Of a DNA stretch of 64,000 nucleotides, positions 46,831 to 55,619 are shown in pieces. The stretch is taken from NCBI RefSeq assembly GCF_009914755.1, contig NC_060931.1; one strand, given 5' to 3'. The notes under the pieces were generated by a model. That model was not told the DNA's origin. It searched no databases and saw only the letters and a program-made list of their open reading frames with translations. A program made the position numbers and the translations under genes. The stretch comes from the human T2T-CHM13v2.0 reference genome, Homo sapiens. How positions within the stretch are numbered: position 1 is the first letter of the stretch; every line of letters begins with the position of its first letter.

Positions 46831-47562
46831 ATGTTGTGGCTTATCTGTGTTATATCTTGAATACACATCACATTTTTGACAACATTTCAATGTTAGAGAC
46901 ATGCTACTTTATTAACAGTCCTCACCTAAATCTTCGTTCTCTTCAAATGCCTCCTGAGTAGATACAGCACATTGCTGATGAAAGAATTTAACTTAAAGAA
47001 CTCACTTTACTGCATTCAAATCAGCCCGTTAAACATTCTGCACTTTAAGCTTTTATTCTAGATTCCATTGTGAGGTGATAATGAGGTGCTGAAAACTAAT
47101 TAGATCATCAGACAAAACTGTCTGGCCCGCCATCTGCTGAGTCTGGAGAGTGATAGTCCCTGGTTGAAATGAGAAATGAGACTAAAAATAACCACCCCAC
47201 CCCTTTTTTCTTCCTGTTCCTTGCCCTGTTCTTGTCTTGGTGCATGGTGGAGAAAGGATTATGTAAGATTCAAGGCTGGCTTGCCCAGCCAGCCAGCTGT
47301 GTGGCCATGTGTTTCTTTTTTTTTTTTTTCTTTTTTTTTCTTTTTATTATTATTATTATTATACTTCAAGTTTTAGGGTACATGTGCACAATGTGCAGGT
47401 TTGTTACATATATATACATGTGCCATGTTGGTGTGCTGCACCCATTAGCTCGTCATTTAGCATTAGGTATATCTCCTAATGCTATCCCTCCCCCCTCCCC
47501 CCACCCCGCAACAGTCCCTTGTGTGTGATGTTCCCCTTCCTGTGTCCATGTGTTCTCATTGT

Positions 47563-50500
47563 TCAATTCCCACCTATGAGTAAGAACATGCGGTGCTTGG
47601 TTTTTTGTCCTTGTGATAGTTTGCTGAGAATGATAGTTTCCAGCTTCATCCATGTTCCTACAAAGGACATGAACTCATCATTTTTTATGGCTGCATAGTA
47701 TTCCATGGTGTATATGTGCCACATGTTCTTAATCCAGTCTATCATTGTTGGACATTTGGGTTGGTTCCAAGTCTTTGCTATTGTGAATAGTGCCGCAATA
47801 AACATACGTGTGCATGTATCTTTATAGCAGCATGATTTATAGTCCTTTGGGTATATACCCAGTAATGGGATGGCTGGGTCAAATGGTATTTCTAGTTCTA
47901 GATCCCTGAGGAATCGCCACACCGACTTCCACAATGGTTGAACTAGTTTACAGTCCCACCAACAGTGTAAAAGTGTTCCTGTTTCTCCACATCCTCTCCA
48001 GCACCTGTTGTTTCCTGACTTTTTAATGATCGCCATTCTAACTGGTGTGAGATGGTATCTCATTGTGGTTTTGATTTGCATTTCTCTGATGGCCAGTGAT
48101 GATGAGCATTTTTTCATGTGTTTTTTGGCTGCATAAATGTCTTCTTTTGAGAAGTGTCTGTTCATATCCTTTGCCCACTTTTTGATGGGGTTGTTTGTTT
48201 TTTCTTGTAAATTTGTTTGAGTTCATTGTAGATTCTGGATATTAGCCCTTTGTCAGATGAGTAGGTTGCAAAAATTTTCTCCCATTTTGTTCACTCTGAT
48301 GGTGGTTTCTTTTGCTGTGCAGAAGCTCTTGAGTTTAATTAGATCCCATTTGTCAATTTTGGCTTTTGTTGCCATTGATTTTGGTGTTTTAGGCATCAAG
48401 TCCTTGCCCGTGCCTATGTCCTGAATGGTATTGCCTAGGTTTTCTTCTAGGGTTTTTATGGTTTCAGGTCTAATATTTAAGTCTTTAATCTATCTTGAAT
48501 TAATTTTTGTATAAGGTGTAAGGAAGGGATCCAGTTTCAGTTTTCTACATATGGCTAGCCAGTTTTCACAGCACCATTTATTAAATAGGGAATCCTTTCT
48601 CCATTTCTTGTTTTTGTCAGGTTTGTCAAAGATCAGATAGTTGTAGACATGTGGCATTATTTCTGAAGGCTTTGTTCTGTTCCATTGCTCTATATCTCTG
48701 TTTTGGTACCAGTACCATGCTGTTTTGGTTACTGTAGCCTTGTAATATAGTTTGAAGTCAGGTAGCGTGATGCCTCCAGCTTTGTTCTTTTGGCTCAGGA
48801 TTGACTTGGAAATGTGGGTTCTTTTTTGGTTCCGTATGAACTTTAAAGTAGTTTTTTCCAATTCTGTGAAGAAAGTCATTGGTAGCTTGATGGGGATGAC
48901 ATTGAATCTATAAATTAACTTGGGCAGTATGGCCATTTTCACGATATTGATTCTTCCTACCCATGAGCATGGAATGTTCTTCCATTTGTTTGTATCCTCT
49001 TTTATTTCATTGAGCAGTGGTTTGTAGTTCTCCTTGAAGAGGTCCTTCATATCCTTTGTAAGTTGGATTCCTAGGTATTTTATTCTCTTTGAAGCAATTG
49101 TGAATGGGAGTTCACTCATGAGTTGGCTCTTTGTTTGTCTGTTATTGGTGTATAAGAATGCTTGTGATTTTTGCACAGTGATTTTGTATGCTGAGACTTT
49201 GCTGAAGTTGCTTATCAGCTTAAGGAGATTTTGGGCTGAGTTGATGGGGTTTTCTAGATATACAATCATGTCATCTGCAAACAGGGACAATTTGACTTCC
49301 TCTTTTCCTAATTGAAAGCCCTTTATTTCCTTCTCCTGCCTGATTGCCCTGGCCAGAACTTCCAACACTATGTTGAATAGGAGTGGTGAGAGAGGGCATC
49401 CCTGTCTTGTGCCAGTTTTCAAAGGGAATGCTTCCAGTTTTTGTCCATTCAGTATGATACTGGCTGTGGGTTTGTCATAGATAGCTCTTATTATTTTGAG
49501 ATATGTCCCATCAGTACCTAATTTATTGAGAGTTTTTAGCATGAAGCATTGTTGAATTTTGTCAAAGGCCTTTTGTACATCTATTGATAATCATGTGGTT
49601 TTTGTCTTTGGTTCTGTTTATATGCTGGATTGCATTTATTGATTTTCGTATGTTGAACCAGCCTTGCATCCCAGGGATGAAGCCCACTTGATCATGGTGG
49701 ATAAGCTTTTTGATGTGTTGCTGGATTCAGTTTGCCTGTATTTTATTGAGGATTTTTGCATCAATGTTCATCAAGGATATTGGTCTAAAATTCTCTTTTT
49801 TTGTTGTGTCTCTGCCAGGCTTTTGTATCAGGATGATGCTGGCCTCATAAAATGAGTTAGGGAGGATTCCCTCTTTTTCTCTTGATTGGAATAGTTTCAG
49901 AAGGAATGGTACCAGCTCCTCCTTGTACCTCTGGTAGAATTTGGCTGTGAATCCATCTGGTCCTGGACTTTTTTTGGTTGGCCAGCTATTAATTATTGCC
50001 TCAATTTCAGAGCCTGTTATTGGTCTATTCAGAGATTCAACTTCTTCCTGGTTTGGTCTTGGGAGAGTGTATGTGTCGAGGAATTTATCCATTTCTTCTA
50101 GATTTTCTAGTTTATTTGCGTAGAGGTGTTTACAGTATTCTCTGATGGTAGTTTATATTTCTGTGGGATCAGTGTTGATATCCCCTTTGTCATTTTTTAT
50201 TGTGTCTATTTGATTCTTCTCTCTTTCATTCTTTATTAGTCTTGATAGTGGTCTATCAATTTTGTTGATCTTTTCAAAAAACCAGCTCCTAGATTCATTG
50301 ATTTTTTTTTGAAGGGTTTTGTGTCTCTATTTCCTTCAGTTCTGCTCTCATCTTAGTTATTTTTTGCCTTCTGCTAGCTTTTGAATGTGTTTGCCCTTGC
50401 TTCTTTAGTTTTTTTAGTTGTGATGTTAGGGTGTCAATTTTAGATCTTTCCTGCTTTCTCTTGTGGGCATTTAGTGCTACAAATTTCCCTCTACACACTG

Positions 50501-53629: not shown

Positions 53630-53908
53630 CGAAAACAGTCAACTCTCCTGGGTCACTGTCCCTTTCTCCCACCATATTGGTACCAATACAAGTATACATC
53701 CCTGCATCACTTTTCCTGGTATTGGAGATCATCCGTTTTCCACCACGGATACTTATTGTTTCTTCCTTGTCATGAATTCGAACTTTGTCTTTTTTCCAGT
53801 AGATGGTGGGTTCTGGGTGTCCCTGGGGAGGCTGGCACTCCACGATTGCAGGCTCTCCAGCTGCCACTACAACATCTGTGGGGTTTTTTCAGAAATCATC
53901 TCGTAACA
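53630..53908 (-). pseudogene. ROBO2P1: Processed fragment of ROBO2 (second Ig domain, two spliced exons); probably the annotated ROBO2 pseudogene, symbol unverified
   Basis: Translates [91 protein letters not shown], near-identical to ROBO2 Ig2 as I recall it; in-frame TGA (CGA decay); 158+121-bp blocks joined at 53751/53750; GT follows at 53629. Confidence 0.88.
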
Positions 53909-55619
53909 CTCTGCAGTGAACTTGAAACACCAAAAGAAACAATCCAATCCCATTCTTTTATGTCTCTTAGACTATGTCCTGTGAGAGTCCTCTCTTCAGA
54001 CCTTGAGAATTAATTCCTGCCACATGAAGTTGTACCACTGTCTCCTCCCTAGGCTGCTCAGCACCAGGCTGAGCCAGGTCCCAGTTCTTCCTCAGCCTCC
54101 CCATGTGTCTCTTATGTAGATGTTAGATCTTATATATCCATAGAGTATTGCAACTGCAGTATTGCAGTGTTCTTCATCTTCTAGTAGGTTTCACCTCCAC
54201 CTCCATTCACATGCCCTACTCCATCATATGTTTAGGGGCATAGAAGATGGTTTAAGTGGCATAGTATTCACATTAACCAAGTTGTCGAGACCCCAAAGCG
54301 TACATGGGCAGAATGTCTCCCACTTGGATTTTGGAATGAATTCCTGGATCCTTTCTTCAGGTGAACTTGATTTCTAGCTCTTCTTTTACCATGGATTCAA
54401 ATGGCTCATCCTTCTGGAACTAGCTAGGCAGCCTTTCTTTGTTCACAAGCACCTGATTCTATTATTTTCCTGGAACAAAGAACTAAACTTGATGGCCAAA
54501 TTTTCTCCTCAGATTATTAAAATCCTAGTAACTGTTTACTTTGTATGCCTAGTACTCACCCAGAAAGCAAGACTGGCCCAGAACAGCTGGGACTTCATTT
54601 TTTAACATCTATGTACCCTTGGCTTCCACTTCCAGAGCTCTCTGGGGGAAATGGCTGAACTTTTGGAAGTCTATACTAGATGACAGGGTGTGAAGTTTGT
54701 GTGAGGGACTATTTTGTCAAATTATTGTGGCTGTCACTTTCATGTTATGATTCAGAACTCAAAAGTCAAGTTCCTTTTGAAAATCGGTCAAACCACATGC
54801 TCTAGTATAAAGCAAACAGTAAAGGAGACAAATTCAAAATTGAAATTCAAAATTCCAACACTCAGTAAGACGTAAGCCAGAAATTAGTCATATTTGTGTT
54901 AATGCTAAATAAGCAATAGCACTTTTGGTATTGAATTAATATTGTACTTCATAGGGTATTTTTTTCTCTTACAAACAGGGGGCACTCTTAACTGTCCAAT
55001 TTATGTTCTAAAAAAAACCCCAATGACTAATACTTAGGTTGTATTTACACAGCACTTTTGATTCAACTCTTTCACTCAGAATAGATTTGTGTTAGCCCCT
55101 TCCACAACATTAGCTACGAGGTCTCTCTGTTGCCCGAATGTAACTGACATCTCCAAACTCCACCATGACCAAAAATAAATCAAGACAAACCTACAACCAC
55201 CACTATGGAAACAGACAACCAACAAGCTGAAGAGATGAACAAAATTCAACTGCTCCAAAATAATAATGGATATGTGTTAACTTGGTCCCGAATCTCTTGT
55301 TTCTTACTGAGGCCAGAATCACTGAGTTTCTTGTAATAGCTCCATTTCCAGTTTTTTGGACTAATTATTTTAAATGAAGCCCTGAATGATGACCTGTCCC
55401 ATCATTGCATGCTTTAAACTGGCTCCTCCACCCACCTTTTAGTGGACACAGAGGAATAACAGTGAATTTGTGGTGTCATGGCCAGCCGGTTGGTGTGAAT
55501 GGGAGCCCTCTGACCTCCACTTCATCTTTGTCTTTGCCTACTTGTGTGTCCCTCCATGACCTGCAGGCTGCTGGCTTGTTCCCAGCTCCACACTCACACT
55601 ATTGAACTTAAAATGTTGA

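What the first reader, a model, noticed from the sequence alone, without database searches (positions are those of the whole stretch)
47305..54113. ROBO2 exons and a full-length L1 appear to have inserted as one chimeric RNA (617-bp spliced 5' transduction)
Seen: no TSD sits next to the L1 5' end (53483). The sequence beside the poly(A), CCATGTGTTTCTT (47305-47317), recurs as CCATGTGTCTCTT at 54101-54113 (12/13). The reconstructed empty site TCTT/AT fits L1 endonuclease preference. Between these, on the minus strand: 192-nt leader (54100-53909), ROBO2 158-bp block, 121-bp block with no intron between, GTAAAAC donor-like start plus 146 nt AT-rich sequence (53629-53484), then L1 base 1. The ROBO2 piece has no poly(A) or TSD of its own. 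Recalled knowledge: ROBO2 exons 3 and 4 have these sizes. Inference: a sense-oriented source L1 lay about 146 nt into ROBO2 intron 4, captured a spliced germline ROBO2 transcript and mobilised it in cis; alternatively ORF2p switched template to partially spliced ROBO2 RNA. Either would be a rare exon-shuffling fossil rather than an ordinary processed pseudogene.
Basis: partly seen in the sequence, partly recalled or inferred. Interest (0 to 1): 0.85.

Follow-up and report, generated by a model that had tools for sequence, protein, structure and literature searches.

The report
ROBO2 exons carried by LINE-1
A complete LINE-1 jumping element landed on chromosome 7 with spliced pieces of the ROBO2 gene attached to its front end, an event of a kind catalogued in print in 2026, though this copy is not in that catalogue.

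Summary
On the minus strand, 6,783 bases (54100 to 47318) lie between two copies of a 13-base target-site duplication (12 of 13 identical). They end in a poly(A) tail and sit at an L1-endonuclease-like site.

The 3' 6.2 kb is a decayed full-length L1 that starts at its family's usual first base. The 617 bases in front of it are:
- 59 nt antisense to the gag region of an endogenous retrovirus;
- a 133-nt non-coding exon from ROBO2 on chr3, 44 kb upstream of the coding exons;
- the 158-nt and 121-nt ROBO2 Ig2 exons, joined exactly at canonical splice sites;
- the first 145 nt of the next intron, unspliced, plus one unmatched T.

In CHM13 the ROBO2 intron has no L1 at that point, and no copy of the retroviral donor piece was found at ROBO2. 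Divergence of the ROBO2 part (3.0%) and of the L1 (3.6-5.1%) is compatible.

Best reading (about 0.6): read-through of a sense L1, since lost, lying 145 nt into the intron, followed by retrotransposition in cis. Main rival (about 0.27): a reverse-transcriptase template jump.

Law and Burns 2026 list 17 such chimeras; this one is not among them. It is a new member of a known kind.

The parts
54101..54113 (-). 5' copy of the target-site duplication (AAGAGACACATGG). The base before it gives the cleavage context AT/AAGA, which is TCTT/AT on the nicked strand.
54042..54100 (-). 59 nt antisense to the gag region of a gammaretrovirus-like endogenous retrovirus family. This is the first exon of the captured RNA and possibly its true 5' end.
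53909..54041 (-). 133-nt non-coding exon ('exon A'), copied from chr3:77487737-77487869. It lies 44.4 kb upstream of the 158-nt ROBO2 exon, has a canonical AG acceptor and GT donor in the parent, and differs at 2 of 133.
53751..53908 (-). ROBO2 158-nt coding exon (Ig2 domain), parent chr3:77532261-77532418. It differs at 7 of 158, including one in-frame stop.
53630..53750 (-). ROBO2 121-nt coding exon, parent chr3:77535946-77536066. It differs at 6 of 121 and is joined exactly to the 158-nt exon.
53485..53629 (-). The first 145 nt of the following ROBO2 intron, unspliced and beginning GTAAAAC. Parent chr3:77536067-77536211; differs at 1 of 145.
53484..53484 (-). A single T at the junction that matches neither the parent intron (C there) nor the L1.
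47318..53483 (-). Full-length L1 (about 6.17 kb with its tail) of the L1PA4/5 age class. The subfamily name is recalled, not computed. Its reading frames are broken. The poly(A) tail lies at about 47318-47345 with two G interruptions.
47305..47317 (-). 3' copy of the target-site duplication (AAGAAACACATGG), directly after the poly(A).

Best explanation

Proposed origin of that RNA at the ROBO2 locus on chr3:
1. Transcription began in, or ran through, an antisense retroviral sequence.
2. Three introns were spliced out: retroviral piece to exon A, exon A to the 158-nt exon, and the 158-nt exon to the 121-nt exon.
3. The transcript ran past the donor of the 121-nt exon for 145 nt into a full-length, sense-oriented L1 then sitting in that intron.
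4. It ended at the L1's own polyadenylation signal, so the intron could never be spliced.
5. The L1 proteins translated from this RNA copied it in cis.

The source L1 allele truncated ROBO2 transcripts. It was probably deleterious and never fixed, so it is missing today.

Shown: a single insertion event, the spliced junctions, contiguity of exon and intron, a complete L1 5' end, and absence of the source L1 in CHM13.
Inferred: that the source L1 ever existed, the transcript start, and the selection argument.
For: - One 12/13 TSD encloses everything. It abuts the poly(A) on one side and the first mapped base on the other.
- The 558 nt from 54041 to 53484 map to three chr3 blocks in genomic order and in sense. 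The junctions fall on canonical AG/GT sites of the parent.
- The 121-nt exon and 145 nt of its intron are contiguous, as in the genome.
- The parent reads CT, not GT, at the break point, so no splice donor is there.
- The L1 is complete to the family terminus, by comparison with 12 of 12 relatives.
- In the parent, a TT/AGAA endonuclease-like site lies 16 nt before the break point, as expected if a sense L1 with a 16-bp TSD once ended there. Only 221 of 1615 positions in that intron stretch have such a motif 7-20 nt upstream. The motif set was chosen after seeing the site.
- Published chimeras of this class are mostly sense-oriented (15 of 17) and nearly full-length, and 15 of 17 parent genes likewise lack an intronic L1. 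One gene (RAP1GDS1) still has its intronic source (PMC13174262, sections 13, 14, 20).
- Cis preference of L1 proteins (established knowledge, recalled) explains why a rare non-canonical RNA was copied.
Against: - No L1 lies at or within 1.5 kb of the break point in ROBO2 in CHM13.
- No sibling insertion carries the intron piece or exon A (only 40 of 145 candidates were scored).
- The retroviral donor piece is also missing. No copy within 3 mismatches of the 59 nt exists anywhere in CHM13, none in the 200 kb upstream of exon A, and none of 408 family matches to a 19-nt pattern lies on chr3 between 72.06 and 99.98 Mb. The cis model therefore needs two sequences lost from the locus.
- The six family copies read do not have GT after the 59th base.
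- One unmatched T sits at the junction.
- Divergence within the ROBO2 part is uneven: 13 of 279 in coding exons against 3 of 278 in non-coding pieces, Fisher p = 0.0195.
- The 617-nt leader holds 12 ATGs, which would hinder ORF1 translation.
Confidence: 0.6

Rival explanations
1. Template jump or RNA-level joining in trans. ORF2p copied an ordinary full-length L1 RNA to its 5' end at the chr7 target. It then jumped onto the 3' end of a partly processed or broken RNA from the ROBO2 locus that ended 145-146 nt into the intron, and copied that RNA to its 5' end. Alternatively, the two RNAs were ligated before reverse transcription. No L1 ever sat in ROBO2.
For: - There is no source L1 in ROBO2 in CHM13 and no siblings.
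- One unmatched base sits at the junction, as expected from untemplated addition before a jump.
- The ROBO2-derived part ends in a U-run.
- A jump at the very end of the L1 template is the natural place for a switch. Template-switch chimeras are documented (papers listed, seen as listings and abstracts only, except PMC13174262).
Against: - Documented switch chimeras mostly involve abundant small RNAs and 5'-truncated L1s, unlike the near full-length L1s of the mRNA class (PMC13174262 section 13).
- A rare non-canonical ROBO2-locus pre-mRNA fragment is an unlikely partner without cis preference (inference).
- There is no microhomology at the junction.
- The break point has an endonuclease-like site 16 nt upstream in the parent. 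Under this model that is a coincidence, true of 221 of 1615 positions.
Confidence: 0.27
2. Cis- or trans-splicing of ROBO2 exons onto an L1 RNA. This is the mechanism Law and Burns favour for most of their 17 chimeras.
For: Upstream exons are spliced and in sense, and the L1 is full length, as in their class.
Against: - The junction with the L1 is not at a splice donor. The donor of the 121-nt exon is read through for 145 nt.
- The parent has CT, not GT, at the break.
- L1 base 1 is not preceded by an acceptor.
Confidence: 0.03
3. Two separate events. A retrocopy of the aberrant ROBO2 RNA inserted first. An L1 later inserted into it and deleted its 3' part, its poly(A) and its 3' TSD. The 12/13 repeat is then chance.
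For: L1 insertions with target-site deletions exist (recalled). Divergence within the ROBO2 part is uneven.
Against: - The 13-mer recurs only at the two exact boundaries of the composite. In shuffles about 0.37 matches are expected over the whole 128 kb of both strands.
- L1 and ROBO2 divergences are compatible.
Confidence: 0.03

Closest known systems
mRNA/lncRNA-LINE-1 5' transduction chimeras of Law and Burns 2026 (Cell Genomics, PMC13174262; 17 insertions in hg38, Table S5)
   Same: Spliced upstream exons lie in sense orientation in front of a near full-length L1. One TSD, one poly(A) and an endonuclease-like site enclose both. The parent gene usually has no intronic L1 today. A first exon derived from a transposable element occurs there too: by my reading of the printed cell, the SATB1-AS1 row starts with L1-antisense-like sequence.
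   Different: - The ROBO2 chimera is not in Table S5, which I read whole; the only chr7 row is ANKAR at 7.39 Mb.
- Its junction is not at a splice donor. It lies 145 nt inside the next intron, contiguous with the exon.
- At 617 nt its 5' part is much longer than most rows, which are about 74-220 nt; the RPL21 row is 612 nt.
- It does not start at the gene's canonical first exon.
RAP1GDS1/L1PA2 chimeras with a surviving intronic source L1 (same paper, section 14)
   Same: Gene exons plus a short stretch of intron directly upstream of an intronic sense L1 are carried along. This is the cis model in a case where the source still exists.
   Different: - There the intron piece is 15 nt and is reached through a cryptic acceptor. 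The source L1 lacks its promoter, and several progeny exist.
- Here the intron piece is reached by read-through of the donor, the L1 has a complete 5' end, there is one copy, and no source is found.
Template-switch chimeric retrogenes (U6/L1 and similar; papers listed, abstracts only; the details are recalled)
   Same: Two RNAs are copied into one insertion with a shared TSD and a single 3' poly(A).
   Different: Those have an abundant small RNA in front of a usually 5'-truncated L1. Here a rare spliced Pol II transcript with retained intron sits in front of a complete L1.
SVA F1 elements carrying MAST2 exon 1
   Same: A retrotransposon acquired spliced host-gene sequence at its 5' end.
   Different: That case involves an SVA rather than an L1, the junction is by splicing into the element, and it founded a subfamily. 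No progeny are seen here.

Membership tests
L1 target-primed reverse transcription insertion | Target-site duplication flanking the whole insert | tested here: met
   13 bp, 12 of 13 identical, at both exact boundaries.
L1 target-primed reverse transcription insertion | 3' poly(A) tail and an endonuclease-like cleavage site | tested here: met
   The tail lies at about 47318-47345. The site reads AT/AAGA, which is TCTT/AT on the nicked strand. It resembles sites in Table S5 such as TT/AAGA and AT/AAAG.
5' transduction by read-through from a source L1 | Extra sequence between the 5' TSD and L1 base 1, in sense, mapping to one other locus | tested here: met
   558 of the 617 nt map to chr3 ROBO2 in order and in sense.
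5' transduction by read-through from a source L1 | A source L1 directly downstream of the transduced sequence at the parent locus | tested here: not met
   In CHM13 the intron continues without an L1, and there is none within 1.5 kb. Other genomes could not be tested.
Law and Burns spliced mRNA/L1 chimeras | Sense-oriented exons with intron removal, in front of a near full-length L1 | tested here: met
   Two junctions are exact between parent exons and one further junction falls at a canonical acceptor. The L1 is complete.
Law and Burns spliced mRNA/L1 chimeras | [quoted passage not shown] | tested here: inconclusive
   The insert starts inside an antisense retroviral gag sequence. A TATA-like stretch lies about 19-26 nt upstream in the family copies read. 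No transcript annotation or CAGE data are available here.
Law and Burns spliced mRNA/L1 chimeras | The exon-L1 junction is at a splice donor (6 of their 17) | tested here: not met
   The junction lies 145 nt into the intron, and the parent reads CT there.
Template-switch chimeric retrogene | The 5' partner is an abundant small RNA ending at its own 3' end, and the L1 is truncated at a variable point | tested here: not met
   The partner is a spliced Pol II transcript broken within an intron, and the L1 is complete. This does not exclude a jump at the template end.
Ordinary processed pseudogene (as annotated, ROBO2P1) | Own poly(A) and own TSD around the mRNA copy | tested here: not met
   There is no A-run after the ROBO2 part and no TSD beside it.

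The most novel reading that the evidence does not exclude
The insert is the only surviving record of an extinct ROBO2 haplotype of an ancestral ape. That haplotype carried both an antisense retrovirus serving as a promoter or first exon and a sense full-length L1 that cut ROBO2 transcripts short 145 nt after the Ig2 exon. Because the intron is contiguous up to L1 base 1, it would be direct evidence that mRNA/L1 chimeras arise in cis from lost intronic L1s, not by the trans-splicing proposed for most published cases.
Probability: 0.45. Interest if true: 0.55.

Novelty: new member of a known kind. Interest (0 to 1): 0.4.

Why it matters
- It adds a well-resolved case to a class of LINE-1 chimeras that was catalogued only in 2026.
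- Its junction is informative. The retained intron abutting L1 base 1 excludes splicing as the joining step. Only two readings remain: physical contiguity with a lost source L1, or a template jump. Primate genomes can separate them.
- It shows that the RefSeq pseudogene ROBO2P1 (53632-53908) is only the coding core of a 558-nt copy of a non-canonical ROBO2-locus transcript.
- It records a cryptic exon 44 kb upstream of the Ig2 exons that was spliced in the germ line roughly 15-25 million years ago. This is a rough figure from 3-5% divergence at the 0.17% per million years used in PMC13174262.
- No function of the chr7 copy is suggested: its reading frames are broken.

Tried and rejected
- Search for the donor copy of the 59-nt retroviral piece, all negative for the ROBO2 region:
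  - whole-genome pattern with up to 3 mismatches found only the window itself;
  - the 3' 30-mer with up to 2 mismatches found 3 hits, none near ROBO2;
  - BLAST of six family copies against the 200 kb upstream of exon A gave no hit at E <= 1e-5;
  - exact degenerate patterns gave 33 and 408 hits, none on chr3 between 72.06 and 99.98 Mb.
  A diverged copy is not excluded.
- Solo-LTR test. I fetched 1.5 kb beyond two family copies to obtain their LTR. The two stretches shared no homology, so no LTR probe was obtained. The test is left open.
- More upstream sequence could not be fetched, and loci for 30 L1 relatives could not be cut. Smaller sets were used instead.
- Pfam named only the zinc knuckle in 1 of 6 retroviral reading frames. 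A PDB sequence search then identified the reverse transcriptase piece.
- L1 hypothesis for the 59 nt, rejected: the family copies have no similarity to the window's L1.
- One of 12 relatives (L060) did not align in the ORF2 segment (45% identity). It was left out of the reading, though it was present in the majority count.
- Looking for the locus in the other supplementary tables of PMC13174262:
  - numbers beginning 5156-5161 gave only chrX rows, and this range rests on a recalled offset between hg38 and CHM13;
  - the phrase searches do not work across a colon and say nothing;
  - the PDFs (mmc1, 6, 7) could not be read and may bear on whether the locus was seen.
- Literature:
  - 'ROBO2P1' occurs in 1 paper, unrelated;
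  - 'ROBO2 + pseudogene + LINE-1 + chimeric' gave 2 papers; in the one I checked (PMC4924340) the ROBO2 mentions concern somatic L1 insertions into ROBO2 in cancers, the other (a colorectal-cancer genome survey) was seen as a listing only;
  - 'ROBO2/HERVH/chimeric transcript' gave nothing relevant among the 10 listed of 124.

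
Full report
**Observation**

Read on the minus strand, the window shows this order:
- flank;
- AAGAGACACATGG (54113-54101);
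- 617 nt of non-L1 sequence (54100-53484);
- an L1 starting GGGGCGGAGCCAAGATGG at 53483 and running to a poly(A) tail that ends at 47318;
- AAGAAACACATGG (47317-47305);
- flank.

With up to one mismatch the 13-mer occurs only at these two places in the window. Shuffles gave a mean of 0.37, and 3 of 100 had two or more. Both copies sit exactly at the boundaries of the composite. No comparable repeat lies next to the L1 5' end: the best 13-mer there has 3 mismatches and is not adjacent. The nick context AT/AAGA resembles published L1 sites.

**The 617 nt**

A search of the window's own assembly scored 40 of 145 candidates. A local BLAST and a reading of the flanks resolve the 617 nt into five parts.

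- Bases 1-59 match, at 90-93%, 35 places scattered over the genome.
  - Six such places that I read are homologous to each other over about 3 kb.
  - Their opposite strand encodes a retroviral zinc knuckle (PF00098, E 3.4e-8; 1 of 6 frames had any Pfam hit).
  - It also encodes a reverse transcriptase piece matching murine leukaemia virus RT (E 7.4e-26).
  - The 59 nt are therefore antisense to the gag region of a gammaretrovirus-like endogenous retrovirus. The family has at least 871 copies matching a 30-nt pattern with up to 3 mismatches.
  - They have no similarity to the window's L1.
- Bases 60-192 copy a unique 133-nt stretch at chr3:77487737-77487869. In the parent it is preceded by a pyrimidine tract and AG and followed by GTGAGG.
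- Bases 193-350 copy the 158-nt exon at chr3:77532261-77532418.
- Bases 351-471 copy the 121-nt exon at chr3:77535946-77536066.
  - Together these two exons encode ROBO2 Ig2. The parent translation matches PDB 6iaa, Roundabout homolog 2, at E 4.3e-50.
- Bases 472-616 copy the next 145 nt of the same intron, contiguous with the 121-nt exon.
- Base 617 is a T where the parent has C.

All exon-exon junctions are exact. The introns removed were 44.4 kb and 3.5 kb, plus one of unknown length. In the copy the ROBO2 frame carries a stop and many replacements.

**The L1**

Its reading frames are broken; the longest open stretch is 366 aa. Its first 800 nt find many relatives at 91-92% identity (40 of 6,830 candidates scored). 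In 12 of 12 relatives the sequence in front of the same GGGG start is unrelated between copies. The window's L1 therefore begins at the family's real 5' terminus.

**The parent locus today**

- In CHM13 the ROBO2 intron runs on past the break point without any L1. There is no L1 similarity within 1.5 kb of any of the three parent exons.
- No other place in the genome carries exon A or the intron piece.
- The retroviral donor piece was not found either. There is no copy within 3 mismatches anywhere and none in the 200 kb upstream of exon A. Of 408 family matches to a 19-nt pattern, none lies on chr3 between 72.06 and 99.98 Mb.
- The six copies read lack GT after the 59th base, so the donor site must have been particular to the source copy. 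That is inference.

**Dating**

- The ROBO2-derived part differs from its parent at 17 of 558 bases (3.0%; 16 of 557 without the junction T).
- The L1 differs from the majority of its 12 nearest relatives at 40 of 785 positions in the 5' UTR (5.1%, of which 13 are CpG transitions).
- In a 1-kb ORF2 segment it differs at 35 of 982 (3.6%). One relative, L060, failed to align there.
- The relatives themselves score 2.4-4.5% and 1.7-3.6% in the two segments.
- The figures are compatible with one event, at roughly 15-25 million years ago by the 0.17% per million years rate used in PMC13174262 (methods).
- An oddity remains. Coding exons carry 13 of 279 differences, while exon A plus intron carry 3 of 278 (Fisher p = 0.0195). 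The non-coding pieces should show changes from both lineages. Conservation of the parent and the low GC of the intron piece (0.25) may explain this. It was not tested.

**Mechanism**

Splicing cannot have made the ROBO2-L1 junction. The donor of the 121-nt exon is read through, and the parent has CT at the break. Two readings remain.

(a) A sense full-length L1 once lay at that intron position.
- Transcripts from upstream were spliced up to the 121-nt exon, ran into the L1 and ended at its poly(A) signal. The L1 proteins then copied the RNA in cis.
- A TT/AGAA site 16 nt before the break in the parent fits a former L1 insertion with a 16-bp TSD. Only 221 of 1,615 positions of that intron stretch have such a motif 7-20 nt upstream (the motif set was chosen after the fact).
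- A gene-truncating allele of ROBO2 would be expected to be lost.

(b) ORF2p reached the 5' end of an ordinary L1 RNA and jumped onto a broken ROBO2-locus RNA.
- The unmatched T and the absence of both 'lost' elements fit this reading.
- The rarity of such an RNA and the complete L1 fit it less well.

I put (a) at about 0.6 and (b) at about 0.27.

**Comparison with the literature**

Law and Burns (Cell Genomics 2026, PMC13174262) describe 17 hg38 L1 insertions with 5' exons of mRNAs or lncRNAs. I read sections 13, 14, 20, 21 and the first of the two parts of section 34 (methods), and read Table S5 whole.
- 15 of the 17 are in sense orientation and most are near full length.
- 15 of the 17 parent genes lack an intronic L1.
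- One gene (RAP1GDS1) has a surviving intronic source.
- The authors favour cis- or trans-splicing.

ROBO2 and this chr7 position are not in Table S5. Their annotation step prioritised BLAST alignments covering more than 75% of the upstream segment by a known transcript. Here only 279 of the 617 nt are canonical ROBO2 exons, which may be why the locus was missed (inference). 'ROBO2P1' occurs in one unrelated paper, and no paper linking it to an L1 was found. The finding is a new member of a known kind, with an unusually informative junction.

**Limits**

- No other primate genome could be searched, so the joint presence or absence of the two parts and the empty site remain untested.
- Exon numbering, the L1 subfamily name and the name of the retroviral family are recalled or left open.
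- Further upstream sequence of ROBO2 could not be fetched.

Noticed in passing
window 53484-54041 against chr3 parent (L002-L004): Divergence from the parent is uneven. The coding exons differ at 13 of 279, but the non-coding exon A plus the intron stub differ at only 3 of 278 (Fisher p = 0.0195). This is the opposite of what two neutral lineages would give.
   Followed up: partly
L005-L010, about 19-26 nt before locus position 1501 (or the reverse-strand equivalent): The six retroviral copies read have an A/T-rich, TATA-like stretch just upstream of the base that is the first base of the chr7 insert. The insert's 5' end may therefore be a true transcript start on the antisense strand of gag.
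   Followed up: no
window 53632-53908 (RefSeq ROBO2P1): The annotated pseudogene covers only the two coding exons, ending 2 bases short of the 121-nt exon. The copy of ROBO2-locus sequence actually spans 53484-54041 and is part of an L1 insertion.
   Followed up: yes
L002 (chr3:77536196-77536211 in CHM13): The parent intron has an L1-endonuclease-like TT/AGAA site 16 nt before the point where the chr7 copy switches to L1.
   Followed up: partly
L005 791-1767, minus strand: In this retroviral copy the zinc-knuckle frame lies only about 260 nt after the proline-rich gag frame. That is too short for a full capsid domain, so the family seems to carry a gag deletion.
   Followed up: no
chr3:78773066-78773194: A 74% match to the 121-nt exon region lies on the opposite strand 1.2 Mb away. 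It is presumably the ROBO1 paralogue's equivalent exon.
   Followed up: no
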